Assembly: GCA_964430225.1 (NCBI GenBank)
Contig: CAYSFE010000001.1
Span: forward strand, 11,820 to 75,819
Direction: 5' to 3'
From: an uncultured Candidatus Saccharibacteria bacterium
GTDB taxonomy: Bacteria > Patescibacteriota > Dojkabacteria > GCA-016699595 > JBAXKR01
DNA: 64,000 nucleotides
Shown here: positions 45,741-51,059 of the stretch, in pieces
How the letters are laid out: every line of letters begins with the position of its first letter
How positions within the stretch are numbered: the first letter of the stretch is position 1
Position numbers and translations under genes: made by a program
The notes under the pieces: model-generated
Databases searched by the model: none
The model's input: the letters and a program-made list of their open reading frames with translations, nothing else
What the model was told of the DNA's origin: nothing

Positions 45741-46058
45741 CTATAGTTGGTCATATTTCTTGTTACTTCCTTTTGCCTTAGATACAGGATATTTCTTAAT
45801 ATTCTTAGCTAGTTTCTTAAGTATTATATCTTCAATATCTACATTAAGACTTTCAGCCATTAGAACAGAGTATATTATTATATCTGCCAATTCTTCATTT
45901 ACTTCTCCTTGCATAGCTACATCATCCCATTGATAACATTCTAATAGTTCTCCAGCTTCTATAGATAAAGACTTAGCTAGATTCTCTGGAGTATGAAACT
46001 TCTTCCATTCTCTTTCATCTCTAAACTTTAATATTTTCTTAATTAAGCTAGGATTCAT
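45741..46058 (-). CDS. MazG-like all-alpha nucleotide pyrophosphohydrolase
   Basis: 'FRDEREWKKFHTPENLAKSLSIEAGELLE...EELADIIIY...KKLAKNIKKYP', the characteristic small MazG-family layout. Confidence 0.55.
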   Translation of the reverse strand: MNPSLIKKILKFRDEREWKKFHTPENLAKSLSIEAGELLECYQWDDVAMQGEVNEELADIIIYSVLMAESLNVDIEDIILKKLAKNIKKYPVSKAKGSNKKYDQL

Positions 46059-46132
46059 AGATGAGAAATAATAAATAATTACTTAAACACAGGTATTATA
46101 TTGCTATTAAAGGGAATTAACAATAACTGCCT

Positions 46133-46159
46133 CAACTTGTAAGAAAACCTTACAAGTTG
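46133..46159. repeat. perfect 11-bp inverted repeat hairpin CAACTTGTAAG-aaaac-CTTACAAGTTG
   Basis: Read directly; lies between the MazG-like and RhuM genes. Confidence 0.6.
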
Positions 46160-46172
46160 ATATATCTTACTA

Positions 46173-46238
46173 AATGTATACAAAGTACACTAGTTTGTAT
46201 CTTTTGATTAAAGCAATGTATACAAACTTTCTATTTTA
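46173..46238. repeat. ~65-bp structured repeat unit, copy 1 (hairpin + conserved 25-mer overlapping the RhuM stop codon)
   Basis: AATGTATACAAAGTAC...TTTGTAT hairpin, then CAATGTATACAAACTTTCTATTTTA (46214-46238). 23/25 identity to copy 2. Confidence 0.55.
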
Positions 46239-47279
46239 TAGAACTGTTTTGTTATTAGGATCAATTAGTTTTTTAACTTCTTTGTCAAAGTCAGAAATAT
46301 AATTTTTATCCTGTATAGGTTTATATTTCTCATACTCACTTTCAGCAAATGACTTGGCCACTTCTGATGAAACTTTACCAGCATTTTTCAAGATATCTTT
46401 ATTATTAAATCTCAAAAATACATCAAGTTTTGTAGCCCAATCTTTCATAGTCATTGGGGTACCGTTTTCTGCCTGGTCTTCTGCATAATCCAAATACATA
46501 GTAACAATTCGGTTAAGTGCCTTGATCTCTTTTTCATTGAGATAGTTTTTTGCTATTACTACATCTGTCTTGAGTATTTTTCCCTTTGGAGCCTTTTTCC
46601 ATGTTGTTAAGCCCATATATTCTTTTTCATGAGAGACTCGATCTACAATCAGCTCAGCTGCTGTATTTTGATGAATAGCGTAATGCATCTTATTTTGAAC
46701 TGTAGCGAAGAAATCTTTAGTTGTTTGTGAATTAAGGTCATAATCTAAAGCAGTTACATAAATATCCGTTATTTTTTGATAAAAGTTTCTTTCACTTTCA
46801 CGAATATCTCTAATTTCAAGAATTAAATCTTCAAAATATTGCTTACTTAAGAATGAACCGTTTTTTAATCTTTCACTATCAAGTACATATCCACGAGTTG
46901 AGAAATCTTTCAATATTCTATTTGCCCATCGACGAAATTCTATTGCTCTTTCTGAGTTAACTTTAAATCCTATTGCTATGATTGCCTCTAAACTATAATG
47001 CTCAACATCTCTTTCCACTTTGCGTGAACCTTCAGTTTGAACTATTCGAAAATTTCGAATAGTTGAGTTCTCAACTAATTCCTTACTCATGAATATCTCT
47101 TTTATATGGTAGTTAATGGTGTTAATTTCAACACTAAAAAGTTTTGCAATTAATTTTTGTGTCAGCCAAATATTCCCATCCTCAACCCTTACTTCAATAC
47201 TATCTTGGCCAGATTGTAGGGTAAATATTAAAAATTCTGAAGTACTATTTCTTATCATTAAGTTTTTACTATTTGGCAT
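46236..47279 (-). CDS. RhuM-family protein (virulence/defence-island associated)
   Basis: N-terminal 'IEVRVEDGNIWLTQKLIAKLFSVEINTINYHIKEIF', typical of the RhuM/Fic-associated family. 347 aa. Confidence 0.55.
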   Translation of the reverse strand: MPNSKNLMIRNSTSEFLIFTLQSGQDSIEVRVEDGNIWLTQKLIAKLFSVEINTINYHIKEIFMSKELVENSTIRNFRIVQTEGSRKVERDVEHYSLEAIIAIGFKVNSERAIEFRRWANRILKDFSTRGYVLDSERLKNGSFLSKQYFEDLILEIRDIRESERNFYQKITDIYVTALDYDLNSQTTKDFFATVQNKMHYAIHQNTAAELIVDRVSHEKEYMGLTTWKKAPKGKILKTDVVIAKNYLNEKEIKALNRIVTMYLDYAEDQAENGTPMTMKDWATKLDVFLRFNNKDILKNAGKVSSEVAKSFAESEYEKYKPIQDKNYISDFDKEVKKLIDPNNKTVL

Positions 47280-47378
47280 GGTGTTTTATAGGTATTATAA
47301 GAATTATGATTATCCTAAAGTCGCTATTGGTATTTTACCTTAAAAGATCGTTTTAATAAAACTGAAGCTATTTACTAG

Positions 47379-47445
47379 GAATGTACTCAAAGTACCCTTG
47401 TTTGAGTACATTCATTCAGTCAATGTACACAAACTTTCCATTTTA
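47379..47445. repeat. ~65-bp structured repeat unit, copy 2 (13-bp inverted repeat GAATGTACTCAAA/TTTGAGTACATTC + conserved 25-mer overlapping the nuclease stop codon)
   Basis: CAATGTACACAAACTTTCCATTTTA at 47421-47445; same architecture as copy 1. Confidence 0.55.
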
Positions 47446-48171
47446 ATATTGTTTTGCCATCTTTTCTTGATACTCACACCATTCACACTCACTTGAATAT
47501 TCTGGTACCTTATCACTATTTAAACAACTTTTAATGTTTAAAAGGGTGGGTTCTATCCAGTTATCATTCCCTACATATGGTATTACTTTGATTTTAAACT
47601 CTAGCTTAGCATCAAATGCCTCTTTATCTTTTATTCCATTGCAATATACAAAGTATCCAGTATTAGATACTTTGAATTCATTTCTTCTTAGCAACCACTG
47701 ATATACCTCCATCTGTCTTTTATATCCCATCTGCCATTCTGAATCTAAGTTTACCTCTGTATCCTTGGCTGTTGATTTATAGTCGACGACATGGAGTTCT
47801 CCAATAGGATTTACCCATACATCATCTATAGCCCCATAAATATATAGGTTGGTTTTAGGATGAAGATACTGTACTCCAGTAAAGTTAGCTCTCCATATAT
47901 CTATATCCTTATGACTATATGGAATAGCATCTATTCCATATTTTTTCATTAAAGGATGCGTTTTTCCCTTTACCCTATGAGCATCAAATTCAAGTTTTAA
48001 TAAATGATCTACTGCAGAGTTAAGAGAGTATGGGGGAGAGGAGGGTCTCTTAATACCTAATTTCTTATCTAAATAGAAACATCTGGGACATTTAACATAT
48101 AGCTCTATACCAGTCCTACTTATCTTATATGAATCTTCACTATCTGTTTTATATACTCCTTTATATGGCAT
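47443..48171 (-). CDS. PD-(D/E)xK nuclease, Cas4/RecB-like with four Cys (CxxC...CxxC)
   Basis: 'GAIDD...ELHVVDYKST' (D...D/E-x-K); N-terminal 'CPRC' and C-terminal 'CEWC'. Confidence 0.5.
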   Translation of the reverse strand: MPYKGVYKTDSEDSYKISRTGIELYVKCPRCFYLDKKLGIKRPSSPPYSLNSAVDHLLKLEFDAHRVKGKTHPLMKKYGIDAIPYSHKDIDIWRANFTGVQYLHPKTNLYIYGAIDDVWVNPIGELHVVDYKSTAKDTEVNLDSEWQMGYKRQMEVYQWLLRRNEFKVSNTGYFVYCNGIKDKEAFDAKLEFKIKVIPYVGNDNWIEPTLLNIKSCLNSDKVPEYSSECEWCEYQEKMAKQY

Positions 48172-48332: not shown

Positions 48333-49901
48333 ATGAATGGACTAAGCTTAAAACAAAAAAGAGTTTATGATTATATAATTAAATTTATAAATGAAAATGG
48401 AATAGCTCCAACTATCGAAGAAATCCGAAAAGCCTTAAAATTAATGGCAACATCTACAGTTCATGAACATATTAAAACTTTAGTAGATAAGGGATATCTT
48501 AAAAAAGAGACCTCCTATCACAGAGGGTTAATTCCAATAAAAGCAATTAAGAAAGTATTTGAGGTTCCAATAATCGGGAAGATTGCAGCTGGCAAACCCA
48601 TTGAGGTAAATGAGGTTTTTGAAGATACAATTTCAATTGTAAACGAAAATATTTCCAACATAAAAGATTTTTATGCTTTAAAAGTCGAGGGTAACAGTAT
48701 GATTGACGAAGGAATTTTTGATGGAGACATTGTGATAGTCAAGAAACAATCAGTAGCCGAAAATGGCCAGACTGTAGTTGCTATTGTTGATGATAATTGT
48801 GCAACTCTTAAAAAGATATATAAAGAGAAATCTAGATTTAGGCTTGAGCCAAGAAATCAATCTATGCTTCCCTTTTTTAGAAAAGAGGTTGAAGTAAGAG
48901 GTGTTGTTATTCAAATCATTAGTAATACCTTTAGTAATGCATTAAATAAACAAGAAAAACAACAAAATTTTAGAACAATTGATTTATTTGCAGGTATTGG
49001 TGGCATACGTATTGGATTTGAAAAAGCAGGATTTAATACAGTTTTCGCAAATGATTTTGAGCCAAATTGTAAAATTACTTATGATCTTAACTTCAAGAAG
49101 ACAAAACTAGTGGTTGAAGATATAAAAAAAATTGGTATTAAAGATTTACCAAACTTTGATTTTGTTTTAGCTGGCTTTCCATGTCAGGCATTTTCAATCG
49201 CTGGTTACAGACAGGGTTTTAATGATGAGAAGGGAAGAGGAAACTTATTCTTTGATATTGTTAAAATTTTAGAAGCACGTAAACCCGAAGGATTTTTACT
49301 AGAGAATGTTAAGAATCTAAAAAGTCATGATAATGGTAAAACTTTTAAGATTATAGAAAAATCGTTAACAGACCTAGGCTATTATGTCAAAACAAAGGTA
49401 CTAAACTCAATGGAATATGGTAATATCCCACAGAATCGCGAACGAATATATATTGTAGGATTCAAAAATAAGAATTATGCAGAAAAATTTACATTCCCAT
49501 TGCCACAAAAGCTTTCAACAAAAGTAGAAGACTTATTAGAAAAGAATGTTCTACAAAAGTATTATTACAATAACAAGCCACTTTACGAGAAGCTTAAAAA
49601 TCATGTAAAAGTAGGAAAGGTTTATCAGTGGAGAAGACAATATGTAAGGGAAAACAAGAAAGGTGTTTGTCCAACATTGACTGCAAACATGGGAACAGGA
49701 GGGCATAATGTTCCAATTATAAAAGATAGTAAGGGAATTAGAAAATTAACTCCAATCGAGTGCGCAAGAATTCAAGGATTTCCGCAAGATTTTGTACTAC
49801 CAAATCTTGCAGACTCCATACTTTATAAACAAATTGGAAATTCAGTCAGTGTACCAGTCGTAGAGTCAGTAGCAAAACAAATGATGAAAGCATTAGAATA
49901 A
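48333..49901 (+). CDS. fusion protein: LexA-like repressor (HTH + S24 autopeptidase) fused to DNA (cytosine-5) methyltransferase
   Basis: Residues 1-~200 are collinear with LexA ('IAPTIEEIRKAL...HIKTLVDKGYL', 'IGKIAAGKPIE' Ala-Gly site, 'VEGNSMID' Ser, 'IVIVKK' Lys). C-terminal C5-MTase motifs: I 'DLFAGIGGIRIGF', IV 'GFPCQAFSIAG', VI 'ENVKNL', 'RIQGFPQDF', 'GNSVSVPV'. Confidence 0.8.
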   Translation: MNGLSLKQKRVYDYIIKFINENGIAPTIEEIRKALKLMATSTVHEHIKTLVDKGYLKKETSYHRGLIPIKAIKKVFEVPIIGKIAAGKPIEVNEVFEDTISIVNENISNIKDFYALKVEGNSMIDEGIFDGDIVIVKKQSVAENGQTVVAIVDDNCATLKKIYKEKSRFRLEPRNQSMLPFFRKEVEVRGVVIQIISNTFSNALNKQEKQQNFRTIDLFAGIGGIRIGFEKAGFNTVFANDFEPNCKITYDLNFKKTKLVVEDIKKIGIKDLPNFDFVLAGFPCQAFSIAGYRQGFNDEKGRGNLFFDIVKILEARKPEGFLLENVKNLKSHDNGKTFKIIEKSLTDLGYYVKTKVLNSMEYGNIPQNRERIYIVGFKNKNYAEKFTFPLPQKLSTKVEDLLEKNVLQKYYYNNKPLYEKLKNHVKVGKVYQWRRQYVRENKKGVCPTLTANMGTGGHNVPIIKDSKGIRKLTPIECARIQGFPQDFVLPNLADSILYKQIGNSVSVPVVESVAKQMMKALE

Positions 49902-49902
49902 A

Positions 49903-50958
49903 TTAAATTTTTTCGGAAATTTCTTTAAATGCCACTTCTGGTTTAGTTAAAAGACCTTTTGATATTAGGGTAGTAATATTATTTTTAGCAATCCAAATGT
50001 TATTTCTATCTAATTTAGGATTTCTTCCTATTGCATTTAAATCAAAACTATAATAATTATCTTTTTCAAGTTTGTAATTCCCAACTATTTTATTTGTTAC
50101 AAACGAATCAGTTACACAATAAATATACCTTCTTATACTTTTTTTGTTCTTTTTTTCAAAAAGTTTAATTTCTCCAGAATAATAAAACCTACCCATAAAT
50201 TCAGGAGAAGGAACCTTTTTATTCATTTCATATTGCTCAAGGTATTCTTTTGAAATTCCAATAATTTCAGGAATTTTGCCTTTTTTTATAGAAGATATTG
50301 TCGCTTTTCCAGCAATGTTAAAAACTTTTGTTTCATACATTAAAGAGTCCTTTCTATAAATTTTCCCATATTTACTTAACTCACTACCCGAAATTACATA
50401 ATCAACTACGACTTGAATATTTTGCATTTCGGTAAATCTTTCAAATATTTCCGTTTTAATTTCTCCTTTAAGGTATACCCCAAGTAAATCCTTCTGTTTA
50501 CTGTCCCCTATGTTTGTATTTGCGATATGAGCACCAATAATAAAAATGTTTTCCAAATTGGAATAACTGGGGATACTTTTTATTGTTTCAAACTGTTCTA
50601 GAGTAAGTCCACACCATCTATCAGCAACTGAGACGTTTTTAATTTCAATAAAACAATTCGGATTTCTTTTCTTATTATTATGGAAAATATATGGAATGTC
50701 AGGCTCATTCAAAATCTCACTATTACTTTTAATATCAAGATCAAGTTCGAATGATTTATTGGGATTGAAATTTGCGAGTATTTTAGAAACTCCAATTTCA
50801 ACAAGCTTACCAAATAAAAAACTATCAATAACACCCCCTAATCCCCTAGAGGAACCTGAGGTTCTTGAAGACTTAGATTTCTTAGGATCAAGATGATATT
50901 TAACAGCGAAGCCGAAAGCAACTTCAAAATCTTTTTTTGTTAAATTATAACTTAACAT
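49903..50958 (-). CDS. putative type II restriction endonuclease (PD-x16-ExK)
   Basis: 'NEPDIPYIFHNNKKRNPNCFIEIKNVS' contains PD...E-I-K. Convergent with the methyltransferase and abutting it (1-nt gap). Confidence 0.45.
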   Translation of the reverse strand: MLSYNLTKKDFEVAFGFAVKYHLDPKKSKSSRTSGSSRGLGGVIDSFLFGKLVEIGVSKILANFNPNKSFELDLDIKSNSEILNEPDIPYIFHNNKKRNPNCFIEIKNVSVADRWCGLTLEQFETIKSIPSYSNLENIFIIGAHIANTNIGDSKQKDLLGVYLKGEIKTEIFERFTEMQNIQVVVDYVISGSELSKYGKIYRKDSLMYETKVFNIAGKATISSIKKGKIPEIIGISKEYLEQYEMNKKVPSPEFMGRFYYSGEIKLFEKKNKKSIRRYIYCVTDSFVTNKIVGNYKLEKDNYYSFDLNAIGRNPKLDRNNIWIAKNNITTLISKGLLTKPEVAFKEISEKI

Positions 50959-50969
50959 TTTTTATTTCT

Positions 50970-51059
50970 TGGCGGAGAGAGAGGGATTCGAACCCCCGGT
51001 TGACTTGCGCCAACAACAGTTTTCAAGACTGTCGCCTTAAACCACTCGGCCATCTCTCC
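50970..51059 (-). tRNA. tRNA-Ser (anticodon UGA), CCA encoded
   Basis: The reverse complement reads GGAGAGATGGCCGAGTGGTTTAAGGCG-ACAGT-CTTGAAA-ACTGT-[long variable arm TGTTGGCGCAAGTCAACC]-GGGGGTTCGAATCCCTC-TCTCTCC-G-CCA. Confidence 0.8.

What the first reader, a model, noticed from the sequence alone, without database searches (positions are those of the whole stretch)
46133..47445. Two copies of a ~65-bp structured element capping the 3' ends of consecutive island genes
The RhuM gene and the PD-(D/E)xK nuclease gene each end in the same element. The 25-mer CAATGTAYACAAACTTTCYATTTTA overlaps the stop codon (23/25 identical between copies). It is preceded ~10 nt earlier by an inverted-repeat hairpin built on the shared core AATGTAyyCAAAGTAC...TTTG (13-bp perfect arms in copy 2). 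The motif ATGTAYACAAA therefore occurs four times. A separate perfect 11-bp hairpin (46133-46159) lies next to copy 1. Shared structured 3' boundaries are reminiscent of cassette recombination sites (attC-like), of a mobile MITE-like element, or of a common terminator/regulatory-RNA module. The core does not match integron attC consensus cores.
Basis: seen in the sequence. Interest (0 to 1): 0.5.

Follow-up and report, generated by a model that had tools for sequence, protein, structure and literature searches.

The report
Orphan Fic-toxin operator boxes
The two repeats are stranded copies of the DNA control region that normally sits directly in front of a widespread Fic toxin gene; the toxin gene is missing here, but the protein-binding boxes are still conserved, so they are probably regulatory sites and not caps on the ends of genes.

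Summary
In detail: two 66-nt copies (46173-46238, 47380-47445; 77% identical) lie in register with the stop codons of RhuM and a PD-(D/E)xK gene. They are not attC-like, MITE-like or terminator modules. Each copy holds three 12-bp half-sites (ATGTAWACAAAC type) in alternating orientation, 23 and 19 nt apart. The same array, plus a fourth half-site abutting the ATG, a TTGACn -35 and a TATACT -10, lies directly upstream of a highly conserved 380-aa class II Fic gene (Fic_N + Fic + C-terminal wHTH, SoFic/CccR type). It occurs there in about 100 distinct loci from Patescibacteria and about ten other phyla. Homologous Fic proteins (CccR, SoFic) are published to bind inverted repeats in their own promoters as dimers. 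Family-wide variation fits protein sites, not RNA pairing. The window copies have no Fic ORF and a mutated -10. Yet in orthologous orphan copies of related strains the half-sites differ at 1/72 positions against 13/36 in the spacers (p = 1e-6), so the boxes are still under selection. RhuM plus one copy is a presence/absence polymorphism among relatives. Best reading: solo Fic-operator arrays left by loss of the Fic ORF, probably still bound in trans.

The parts
47423..47434 (-). Copy 2, half-site 3 (minus strand GTTTGTGTACAT), left half of operator O1
   Evidence: Same register as site 3 of the canonical Fic modules.
47400..47411 (-). Copy 2, half-site 2 (minus strand ATGTACTCAAAC), right half of O1, 23 nt start-to-start from site 3
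   Evidence: Its ortholog in L154 reads ATGTACACAAAC.
47381..47392 (-). Copy 2, half-site 1 (minus strand CTTTGAGTACAT), 19 nt from site 2. There is no site 0 after it.
   Evidence: Homology with L055 ends exactly at 47380.
47435..47457 (-). Copy 2, A-rich upstream extension (minus strand GCAAAACAATATTAAAATGGAAA). It supplies the last 4 codons and the TAA stop of the PD-(D/E)xK gene.
   Evidence: L160, a 95%-identical PD-(D/E)xK gene without the module, loses homology at 47458 and has a different C-terminus.
46216..46227 (-). Copy 1, half-site 3 (minus strand GTTTGTATACAT, perfect consensus)
46193..46204 (-). Copy 1, half-site 2 (minus strand AAAGATACAAAC, one mismatch to the common ATAGATACAAAC variant)
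   Evidence: Identical in the L154 ortholog.
46174..46185 (-). Copy 1, half-site 1 (minus strand CTTTGTATACAT)
   Evidence: Homology with the L154 block ends at 46173.
46228..46253 (-). Copy 1, A-rich upstream extension that includes the last codons and the TAA stop of RhuM (CAAAACAGTTCTATAAAATAGAAA)
   Evidence: Similar to the copy 2 extension and to the A-rich stretch upstream of T-class canonical modules.
46156..46167 (-). Copy 1, degenerate remnant of half-site 0 (minus strand GATATATCAAC). It overlaps the arm of the hairpin.
   Evidence: Alignment with L055 and L154, which keep site 0 at the canonical +22.
46133..46159 (.). Perfect 11-bp hairpin, separate from the boxes. A near-identical copy lies in L123:751-775 next to a degenerate box pair.
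46095..46123 (-). Sigma-70-like promoter (TTGTTA-17-TATAAT) upstream of the MazG-like gene
   Evidence: a consensus match only
46236..47279 (-). RhuM-family gene (PADLOC PDC-S05), flanked by the two copies. Absent at this position in relative L055.
47443..48171 (-). Cas4-like PD-(D/E)xK gene, widely conserved in Patescibacteria. Its 3' end is supplied by copy 2.
45741..46058 (-). MazG-like gene downstream of copy 1

Best explanation
Each copy is a solo, Fic-less copy of the autoregulatory promoter-operator of a horizontally spread SoFic/CccR-type Fic toxin gene.

The canonical module. Read on the window's minus strand it is: A-rich stretch - box3 (GTTTGTWTACAT) - TTGACn (-35) - box2 (ATGTAWACAAAC) - TATACT (-10), overlapping box1 (TTTGTWTACAT) - about 10 nt - box0 (ATGTAARCAAAC) - ATG of Fic. 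Boxes 3+2 and boxes 1+0 form two inverted-repeat operators. Their half-site centres are 22-23 bp apart. Dimers of the Fic protein are expected to bind them through the C-terminal winged helix, cover the -35, the -10 and the start codon, and so repress the toxin gene.

The window copies. The Fic ORF is gone, box0 is lost or degenerate, and the -10 is mutated (TGTACT in c1, GGTACT in c2). The copies therefore no longer drive a Fic gene. Boxes 3, 2 and 1 keep the canonical spacing and are under purifying selection. I therefore think they still act as DNA sites for a Fic-wHTH-type repressor made elsewhere in the genome. They would then work as operators or roadblocks around RhuM (copy 2 lies 100 nt upstream of it, copy 1 just downstream) and upstream of MazG. 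Their position at the stop codons arises because the inserted Fic unit landed in the very 3' end of the upstream ORF.

Status of each step.
- Shown here: the homology and architecture, the linkage to Fic elsewhere, the absence of Fic in the window, the selection on the boxes, and the origin of orphans by ORF deletion.
- Inferred: that this Fic subfamily binds these boxes (shown experimentally only for CccR and SoFic), and that a trans-acting binder exists in this organism.
For: Family and architecture.
- A pattern that required only the three boxes found 62 metagenome loci. I estimate that fewer than 0.01 hits would be expected by chance for 26 specified bases.
- A protein-based scan found 291 relatives of the linked Fic among the 185,579 species genomes. 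Nearly all of the 80 loci kept carry the module directly upstream of the Fic gene.
- Of 109 distinct Fic-upstream sequences, 105 could be parsed and 97 have all four boxes at exactly 23/19/22 nt.
- TTGACn is present in 96 of the 105 parsed sequences. TATACT follows at a 17-nt spacer in 78 of 105.

Linked gene.
- Pfam finds Fic_N + Fic.
- A profile of the gene matches SoFic (3eqx, deposited as 'Fic domain containing transcriptional regulator') and 7cb8 over the full length.
- CccR represses its own promoter as a dimer through inverted repeats near the -35 and -10 (PMC9755527).
- SoFic binds the first 100 bp upstream of its start codon, and only as a dimer (bioRxiv 10.64898/2026.07.09.737422).

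Protein sites, not an RNA helix.
- The T/A choice at box position 6 correlates as strongly between boxes that cannot pair (3-1: 88/97 identical) as between boxes that can (3-2: 92/97; 2-1: 87/97).
- A/G changes at position 7 are not compensated.
- Non-Watson-Crick cells are mostly mismatches, not G-U, on either strand.

Binder.
- The one Fic alignment column perfectly associated with box class is Thr/Ser at residue 339, the start of the predicted wHTH recognition helix.

Window copies.
- They keep the 23/19 spacing.
- There is no Fic anywhere in the 64 kb.
- c1 is closer to canonical modules (84-86% to L022, L124 and L139) than to c2 (77%).

Selection (window against the orthologous orphan copies in L154).
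- Boxes differ at 1/72 positions and spacers at 13/36 (Fisher p = 1.2e-6).
- Four-fold sites of the adjacent RhuM gene differ at 16.5%. At that rate, one or fewer box changes has P = 3.5e-5.

Origin by ORF loss.
- L126 holds an intact module + Fic, and also a second module followed by an internally deleted Fic that retains only the wHTH end.
- L055 and L154 keep box0 plus a decayed Fic start.
Against: - No Fic or other candidate binder lies in the 64-kb window or on the relatives' short contigs. The trans-acting protein is therefore assumed.
- Binding of this Fic subfamily to these boxes has not been tested. The residue-339 association probably reflects a single clade split.
- Copy 2 carries C at box position 6 in all three boxes. 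None of the Fic-linked modules parsed has this in more than one box, so a canonical Fic may not recognise copy 2.
- Conserved arms with variable loops are also what an RNA or DNA hairpin under selection would show. With only one box substitution, the orphan copies themselves cannot separate the two readings.
- Copy 2 lies about 80-135 nt upstream of the likely RhuM promoter, which is an unusual position for simple repression.
Confidence: 0.6

Rival explanations
1. Neutral relics. The two copies are dead remains of Fic cassettes whose ORFs were deleted. They have no present function and are simply not yet eroded.
For: - There is no Fic ORF, the -10 is mutated in both copies, the -35 is mutated or shifted, and box0 is lost.
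- L126 shows that Fic genes decay while leaving the module.
- Decayed Fic start stubs remain in L055 and L154.
Against: - Between orthologous orphan copies, boxes differ at 1/72 positions against 13/36 in the spacers and 16.5% at four-fold sites.
- Both lineages share the loss of the conserved A at position 2 of the -10, which suggests that the divergence happened after the promoter was lost.
- Other orphans (L009, L017, L034, L046, L049) keep three perfect boxes with no promoter hexamers at all.
Confidence: 0.15
2. RNA-level 3' stem-loops. The alternating inverted boxes are kept because, once transcribed at the ends of the PD-(D/E)xK and RhuM mRNAs, they fold into hairpins that terminate transcription or protect the 3' ends.
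For: - The copies lie directly after the stop codons on the coding strand.
- The minus-strand folds are more stable than shuffles (z = -4.1 and -2.8).
- Arms are conserved while loops vary.
- An additional perfect hairpin follows copy 1.
Against: - No U-tract follows either box hairpin.
- The two copies fold differently: boxes 3-2 pair in c1, boxes 2-1 in c2.
- The perfect 13-bp stem of c2 is not conserved. In L154, box 2 matches box 3 and mismatches box 1.
- All three boxes are conserved, including the positions of c1 box 2 that do not pair.
- The family shows no compensatory changes, and boxes that cannot pair co-vary equally well.
- In canonical loci most of the array lies upstream of the predicted transcription start.
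Confidence: 0.12
3. Recombination sites. The copies are crossover points, site-specific or microhomology-driven, at which genes such as RhuM are inserted, excised or exchanged. This would be a functional analogue of attC.
For: - RhuM plus one copy is an indel between the window and L055, and L055's single module is c2-like on the left and c1-like on the right.
- Homology with relatives ends exactly at the outer edge of box 1 in both cases (47380 for L055, 46173 for L154).
- The block c2-RhuM-c1 lies in a different gene context in L154-L159.
- The Fic + module unit itself sits in many unrelated contexts, often a few nt after the stop of the upstream gene.
Against: - No integrase, resolvase or transposase was found among the ORFs examined from 38.6 to 63.6 kb.
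- The moved block also carries 229 nt of the PD-(D/E)xK 3' end, so its left border is not at a box.
- The copies share runs of at most about 10 identical bases.
- There are no attC cores, terminal inverted repeats or target-site duplications.
- No repeat of the tRNA-Ser end was found.
- The boxes are fully accounted for as a Fic operator.
Confidence: 0.1

Closest known systems
PcccR operator of CccR, Yersinia pseudotuberculosis (class II Fic with C-terminal HTH; PMC9755527; the best PDB match here, 7cb8, is a Fic-domain protein of this type)
   Same: - The toxin is its own repressor.
- A dimer binds inverted repeats that flank the -35/-10 region of its own promoter.
- The DNA-binding helices lie far apart (about 70 A), which fits half-sites with centres about two helical turns apart.
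- The domain architecture is homologous over the full length.
   Different: - The half-site sequence differs (AGATAATCAT against ATGTAWACAAAC).
- The spacer differs (26 bp against 10-11 bp).
- CccR has two half-sites; this module has four in two operators, the last one abutting the start codon.
- The window copies have no Fic gene at all.
SoFic (SO_4266, PDB 3eqx) binding to its own promoter (bioRxiv 10.64898/2026.07.09.737422)
   Same: - The architecture is the same: Fic_N, Fic and wHTH.
- DNA binding depends on dimerisation.
[quoted passage not shown]
   Different: - No binding motif was defined for SoFic.
- The sequence relationship to the Fic subfamily found here is distant (profile E = 1e-32).
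Operators of type II toxin-antitoxin modules (for example phd/doc)
   Same: A Fido-fold toxin locus is autorepressed through palindromic operators that overlap the promoter.
   Different: In those modules the DNA binder is a separate antitoxin. Here the inhibitory helix and the DNA-binding domain are part of the toxin polypeptide, and there is no second gene.
Integron attC sites
   Same: They are imperfect inverted repeats that start at or near the stop codon of variable genes. The flanked gene is present or absent among strains.
   Different: - There are no R''/L''-L'/R' cores (RYYYAAC / GTTRRRY) and no extrahelical bases.
- There is no intI or attI nearby.
- The element is a promoter-operator of a specific gene family elsewhere.
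MITEs and REP-like intergenic repeats
   Same: They are short palindromic repeats at gene ends.
   Different: - Only two copies occur in 64 kb.
- There are no terminal inverted repeats or target-site duplications.
- Most copies found elsewhere are tied to one gene family (Fic) or to its remnants.

Membership tests
Autoregulatory operator of wHTH-containing class II Fic toxins (CccR/SoFic type) | The element lies in the promoter of a class II Fic-wHTH gene and overlaps the -35/-10. | tested here: not met
   This is met in about 100 related loci. The two window copies have no Fic ORF downstream and a mutated -10. They are orphan derivatives, not working Fic promoters.
Autoregulatory operator of wHTH-containing class II Fic toxins (CccR/SoFic type) | Sequence homology to the canonical module: 12-bp half-sites in alternating orientation at fixed spacing. 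| tested here: met
   Boxes 3, 2 and 1 lie at 23 and 19 nt in both copies, as in 100-103 of the 105 canonical modules parsed. c1 is 75-86% identical to many canonical modules over 56-99 nt.
Autoregulatory operator of wHTH-containing class II Fic toxins (CccR/SoFic type) | The half-sites are bound by the Fic dimer through its C-terminal wHTH. | not testable with these tools
   The only support is indirect: published binding for CccR and SoFic, and a perfect association of box class with residue 339 in the predicted recognition helix.
Integron attC / gene cassette | Inverse core RYYYAAC and core GTTRRRY at the ends of an imperfect palindrome, with extrahelical bases. | tested here: not met
   Reading of both strands finds no such cores. 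The palindromes are the Fic boxes.
Integron attC / gene cassette | An adjacent integron integrase with attI and an array of promoterless cassettes. | tested here: not met
   No integrase or recombinase domain was found in the ORFs from 38.6 to 63.6 kb. The rest of the window was not scanned.
Intrinsic (Rho-independent) terminator | A G+C-rich stem-loop followed directly by a U-tract on the transcribed strand. | tested here: not met
   The terminator scan reports nothing on the minus strand at either copy. It reports only the separate hairpin 46132-46160, on the plus strand. No T-run follows the box hairpins.
MITE / dispersed repeat | Many copies in unrelated contexts, with terminal inverted repeats and target-site duplications. 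| tested here: not met
   There are two copies in 64 kb. No TIR or TSD is present. Most copies in other genomes are tied to Fic or to Fic remnants.
Known structured RNA (Rfam 15) | A match to a curated covariance model. | tested here: not met
   No hit overlaps either copy even at E <= 10.
tRNA-linked integrative island att repeat | A direct repeat of the tRNA 3' end at the far border of the island. | tested here: not met
   No exact repeat of 11 nt or more of tRNA-Ser (50970-51059) occurs elsewhere in the window.

The most novel reading that the evidence does not exclude
The boxes define a trans-acting regulon of a mobile Fic toxin-repressor. Solo box arrays would be retained, or seeded, next to other defence genes so that one Fic-wHTH protein couples their expression to its own state. 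Examples are RhuM and MazG here, hsdR in L020 and a YhcG nuclease in L044. Because the arrays are shared, they would also serve as the joints at which such genes are swapped between strains. In that reading the window shows a RhuM gene bracketed by two box arrays of different specificity (T-class c1 and C-class c2), which could be looped or insulated by Fic dimers.
Probability: 0.25. Interest if true: 0.65.

Novelty: new member of a known kind. Interest (0 to 1): 0.42.

Why it matters
- It gives a concrete, testable operator code for one of the most widely transferred Fic toxin genes. That code is four ATGTAWACAAAC boxes at 23/19/22 nt around a near-consensus promoter. The gene is 75-96% identical across Patescibacteria and about ten other phyla. 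Only two relatives (CccR and SoFic) have any DNA-binding data, and SoFic has no defined motif.
- It shows that Fic-less copies of the operator persist under purifying selection beside other defence genes. This would extend the role of these toxin-repressors from autoregulation to control of neighbouring defence functions in reduced CPR genomes.
- For annotation, it warns that conserved palindromes at the 3' ends of genes can be the 5' control region of a gene that has since been lost.

Tried and rejected
- **Strict pattern for the first half of the element.** AATGTANNCAAAGTACNCTNGTTTG gave 0 hits in genome contigs and in viral contigs. It was too specific. The looser three-box pattern worked.
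- **Viral contigs with a general three-box pattern.** 0 hits.
- **Plasmid collection with the Fic protein.** Only relatives of 43% identity or less, so there is no evidence that this subfamily travels on known plasmids.
- **Rfam at E <= 10.** Nothing at the element.
- **A RhuM-specific operator.** Three RhuM homologues (50-54% identity; L048, L058, L127) have no boxes upstream or downstream. Rejected.
- **A feature of the PD-(D/E)xK gene.** Five neighbourhoods of homologues (69-95% identity) have no boxes. Rejected.
- **Simple local duplication of c1 and c2.** c1 is closer to canonical modules of other phyla than to c2. Unlikely.
- **An att repeat of tRNA-Ser.** None found.
- **Fic remnants downstream of c1 or c2 in the window.** tblastn finds nothing. 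Only relatives keep stubs.
- **The hairpin 46133-46159 as the Fic gene's own terminator.** It was not found downstream of intact Fic genes, only in L123.
- **An early misreading, corrected.** A 'second subgroup' with the gene on the other side (L008, L027, L028, L030, L050) turned out to be the same four-box architecture. The quasi-palindromic pattern had matched it on the opposite strand.
Full report
**1. Observation**

The window holds two direct copies of a 66-nt element, at 46173-46238 and 47380-47445, that are 77% identical. Its last three bases are the stop codons (TAA on the minus strand) of a RhuM-family gene (46236..47279) and a Cas4-like PD-(D/E)xK gene (47443..48171). The perfect 13-bp inverted repeat in copy 2 and the separate 11-bp hairpin at 46133-46159 are both present.

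Two details needed correcting. The 11-mer ATGTAYACAAA occurs three times exactly and twice with one mismatch, and it is not enriched on its own. Copy 1 does not form the same hairpin as copy 2.

**2. Anatomy**

Each copy consists of three 12-bp boxes of one type (ATGTAWACAAAC) in alternating orientation. On the minus strand, which is the strand of the island genes, they read box3 (GTTTGTnTACAT), box2 (ATGTAnnCAAAC) and box1 (cTTTGnnTACAT). Start-to-start spacings are 23 and 19 nt in both copies. The 25-mer is box 3 plus an A-rich stretch that contains the stop codon.

**3. The element is a member of a large family**

A pattern that required only the three boxes found 62 loci in public metagenomes. 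After removing duplicates there are 54 distinct instances, counting the two window copies. In most of them a fourth box, in inverted orientation, abuts the ATG of a roughly 380-aa gene on the same strand as the window's island genes. That gene is a class II Fic protein:
- Pfam finds Fic_N + Fic.
- The Fic motif HPFLDGNGRTGR lies at residues 213-224, and an N-terminal SSQIEG inhibitory motif is present.
- Ten examples from unrelated contexts are 58-87% identical to the first sequence of the alignment.
- A profile of them matches SoFic (3eqx, deposited as 'Fic domain containing transcriptional regulator') and 7cb8 over the full length, including the C-terminal winged-helix domain.

Searching one genome per species with this protein gave 291 relatives. 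The best 80 are 74-96% identical. They come from many Patescibacteria classes and also from MAGs labelled Gallionella, Actinomycetota, Ca. Brocadia pituitae (a complete genome), Verrucomicrobiota, KSB1, Ignavibacteriales, Bdellovibrionales and others. Nearly all of them carry the module directly upstream of the gene.

**4. Canonical architecture**

There are 109 distinct Fic-upstream sequences, of which 105 could be parsed.
- Box spacings are 23, 19 and 22 nt in 100, 103 and 102 of the 105.
- The half-site consensus is A-T-G-T-A-W-A/g-C-A-A-A-C.
- TTGACn lies between boxes 3 and 2.
- TATACT follows after a 17-nt spacer in 78 of the 105 and overlaps box 1.
- Box 0 ends 0-3 nt before the start codon.

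The module is therefore a near-consensus sigma-70 promoter wrapped in two inverted-repeat operators: boxes 3+2 around the -35, and boxes 1+0 between the -10 and the ATG. A more divergent relative (L052) has the box-pair unit repeated several times, which supports the pair as the binding unit.

**5. Protein sites or RNA structure?**

I compared boxes within modules.
- The T/A choice at box position 6 is shared between boxes 3 and 1, which have the same orientation and cannot pair, in 88/97 modules. That is as often as between the pairable boxes 3-2 (92/97) and 2-1 (87/97).
- A/G differences at position 7 are not compensated.
- Non-Watson-Crick combinations are mostly true mismatches, not G-U, on either strand.
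- Boxes 1 and 0 differ at position 6 in about half of the modules.

This is the pattern of repeated sites for one protein, not of a conserved helix. Rfam has nothing here.

**6. Who binds?**

Published work on two homologues gives the mechanism. CccR of Yersinia pseudotuberculosis is a class II Fic with a C-terminal HTH. It represses its own promoter as a dimer by binding inverted repeats near the -35 and -10. Its C-terminal half is sufficient for binding, and its DNA-binding helices are about 70 A apart (PMC9755527). SoFic binds the first 100 bp upstream of its own start codon, and only as a dimer (bioRxiv 10.64898/2026.07.09.737422). The 22-23-bp centre spacing of the box pairs here corresponds to about two helical turns.

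Within the family, the single alignment column perfectly associated with box class (TATAC against TAAAC/TAAGC) is Thr/Ser at residue 339. This is the first residue of the predicted wHTH recognition helix (WTGF-T/S-R-A/V-G). Residue 341 is also among the top six columns. This is suggestive only, because the A-class is probably one clade.

**7. What the window copies have and lack**

There is no Fic gene anywhere in the 64 kb.
- **Copy 1** has consensus boxes 3 and 1, a box 2 with one mismatch, a degenerate box 0 (GATATATCAAC), a spoiled -35 (TTTAAT) and a spoiled -10 (TGTACT).
- **Copy 2** has boxes with C at position 6 (ATGTAC[A/T]CAAA), a -35-like TTGACT shifted by 4 nt, a spoiled -10 (GGTACT) and no box 0.

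Copy 1 is more similar to canonical modules from other phyla (84-86%) than to copy 2 (77%). The two are therefore not a simple recent local duplication.

The element also extends into the ORFs. L160, a strain whose PD-(D/E)xK gene is 95% identical in DNA but has no module, loses homology at 47458 and has a different C-terminus. The last four codons and the stop of the window's gene therefore belong to the inserted DNA, and the c1/c2 similarity starts at the same CAAAACA. That explains why the element seems to 'cap' the genes.

**8. Relatives of this locus**

- **L055** has PD-(D/E)xK, then a single module (c2-type boxes 3-2-1, an intact box 0, ATG and a 12-codon stub), then MazG. It has no RhuM. 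Homology to the window ends exactly at 47380.
- **L154-L159** have RhuM that is 92.8% identical in protein. They carry a block made of the last 229 nt of PD-(D/E)xK, c2', RhuM and c1'. The block is 91% identical to window 47671..46173 but lies between a SLFN-like helicase gene and a Ham1p gene. Homology ends exactly at 46173.
- c1' keeps box 0 at the canonical +22, followed by a decayed Fic start.
- **L126**, a Patescibacteria single-cell genome, has an intact module + Fic. About 1.5 kb downstream it has a second module followed by an internally deleted Fic that retains only the wHTH-coding end.

Orphan modules thus arise by loss of the Fic ORF. The island is highly rearranged among close relatives.

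**9. The orphan boxes are under selection**

I compared the window with the orthologous orphan copies in L154. The 72 box positions differ once. The 36 spacer positions, which include the former -35 and -10, differ 13 times (Fisher p = 1.2e-6). Four-fold degenerate sites in the adjacent RhuM gene differ at 16.5%. At that rate, one or fewer changes in 72 box positions has P = 3.5e-5. Both lineages share the loss of the -10's conserved A, so most of this divergence took place without a working Fic promoter.

Other orphans behave the same way. L009, L014, L017, L034, L046 and L049 keep three perfect boxes with no promoter hexamers. L020 has a complete module between hsdS and hsdR with no Fic on the 12 kb of the contig held here. 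L044 has one 60 nt upstream of a YhcG nuclease gene.

**10. Interpretation**

Identity is close to certain (about 0.9).

Present function is less certain. My best reading (about 0.5-0.6) is that they remain binding sites for a Fic-wHTH-type protein encoded elsewhere, acting as operators or roadblocks around RhuM and upstream of MazG. The rivals are:
- **Neutral relics**, contradicted by the selection test.
- **RNA 3' stem-loops.** There is no U-tract. The two copies fold differently. The perfect stem of c2 is not conserved, since in L154 box 2 matches box 3 instead.
- **Recombination joints.** Homology breaks at the outer edge of box 1 in two independent comparisons, which is striking. But no recombinase is nearby, the moved block also carries part of PD-(D/E)xK, and no tRNA-derived att repeat exists.

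**11. Comparison with what is known, and novelty**

The mechanism class is known: a class II Fic toxin that represses its own promoter through a C-terminal wHTH (CccR 2022; SoFic preprint 2026). I found no description of the following:
- the four-box operator of this widespread, mostly CPR-borne Fic subfamily;
- its precise geometry;
- Fic-less box arrays under purifying selection beside other defence genes.

The literature search was limited to the two searches. The window element fails the membership feature 'in the promoter of a Fic gene' and passes the homology feature. It is therefore best filed as an orphan derivative of a new member of a known kind.

**12. Caveats**

- The binder is inferred.
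- MAG taxonomic labels may include binning errors.
- The selection test rests on one pair of lineages per copy, plus L055 for c2.
- The metagenome pattern required near-consensus boxes, so diverged family members (including any C-class Fic-linked module) would have been missed.
- The window's organism is inferred to be a Patescibacterium only from its closest protein relatives and its 31% G+C.

Noticed in passing
window 48333-49901 (+), with 49903-50958 (-) and tRNA-Ser 50970-51059 (-): A single 522-aa ORF fuses a complete LexA (LexA_DNA_bind + Peptidase_S24) to a C-5 cytosine DNA methyltransferase (PADLOC MTase_II). It is convergent with a 351-aa ORF without any Pfam or PADLOC hit (possibly the restriction enzyme), which abuts the 3' end of tRNA-Ser(tga). 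A LexA-controlled or self-cleaving methylase of a restriction-modification system would be unusual.
   Followed up: no
Loci L006, L013, L021, L026, L037, L042, L063, L066-L068, L071, L072 and others, about 6 nt upstream of box 3: A perfect or near-perfect DnaA-box-like motif (GTTATCCACA) sits just upstream of box 3 in 15 of 32 A-class modules and in only 1 of 72 T-class modules. It is absent from the window copies. Its function is unknown.
   Followed up: partly
L009:7595-7649, L014, L017:4296-4350, L049, L046, L034/L045: These 'class B' arrays have three perfect boxes without -35/-10 hexamers, followed by a strong hairpin. They lie 125-138 nt from a divergently transcribed 196-209-aa gene that has no Pfam hit and whose C-terminus looks like a winged-helix DNA-binding domain. 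In L046 the array lies about 180 nt upstream of a different 300-aa Fic gene.
   Followed up: partly
L126:5690-5970: A second module copy is followed by an internally deleted Fic that keeps only the wHTH-coding end (VAVVQKWTGFTRAGAQTVIDRF...). If expressed, it could be a stand-alone repressor fragment.
   Followed up: partly
window 46133-46159 and L123:751-775: The 11-bp hairpin next to copy 1 has a near-identical copy (CAACTTGTAAG-GATTT-CTTACAAGTT) in a Peribacteria MAG. There it lies beside a degenerate box pair and the 3' end of a PD-(D/E)xK homologue. It was not found downstream of intact Fic genes.
   Followed up: partly
L005 (whole 1.3-kb contig), L010/L052, L053, L015: Tandem, iteron-like arrays of the 12-bp box or of box pairs. 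In L052 they lie upstream of a more divergent Fic (58% identity).
   Followed up: no
window 47443-48171 and loci L146-L153, L160: The Cas4-like PD-(D/E)xK protein is extremely widespread and conserved. All 8000 candidates scored had E <= 1e-20, and the best 120 are about 60-100% identical. Its flanks are a hotspot for variable defence genes: type I R-M, GmrSD, NucS-like, AAA_15 and RhuM.
   Followed up: partly
L146:2382-3347: A 321-aa protein next to a PD-(D/E)xK homologue is hit by both the Virulence_RhuM and the Fic Pfam models. This is consistent with RhuM proteins carrying a Fic/Doc-like domain. In L127, RhuM, Fic (with module) and PD-(D/E)xK genes lie within about 4 kb on the same strand, separated by one 219-aa ORF.
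   Followed up: no
Window copies against L154: spacers between the boxes: The spacers differ at 36%, significantly more than the four-fold sites of the adjacent gene (16.5%; P = 0.004). This may reflect a high mutation rate in the loops of the palindromes, or selection to erase the old promoter.
   Followed up: no
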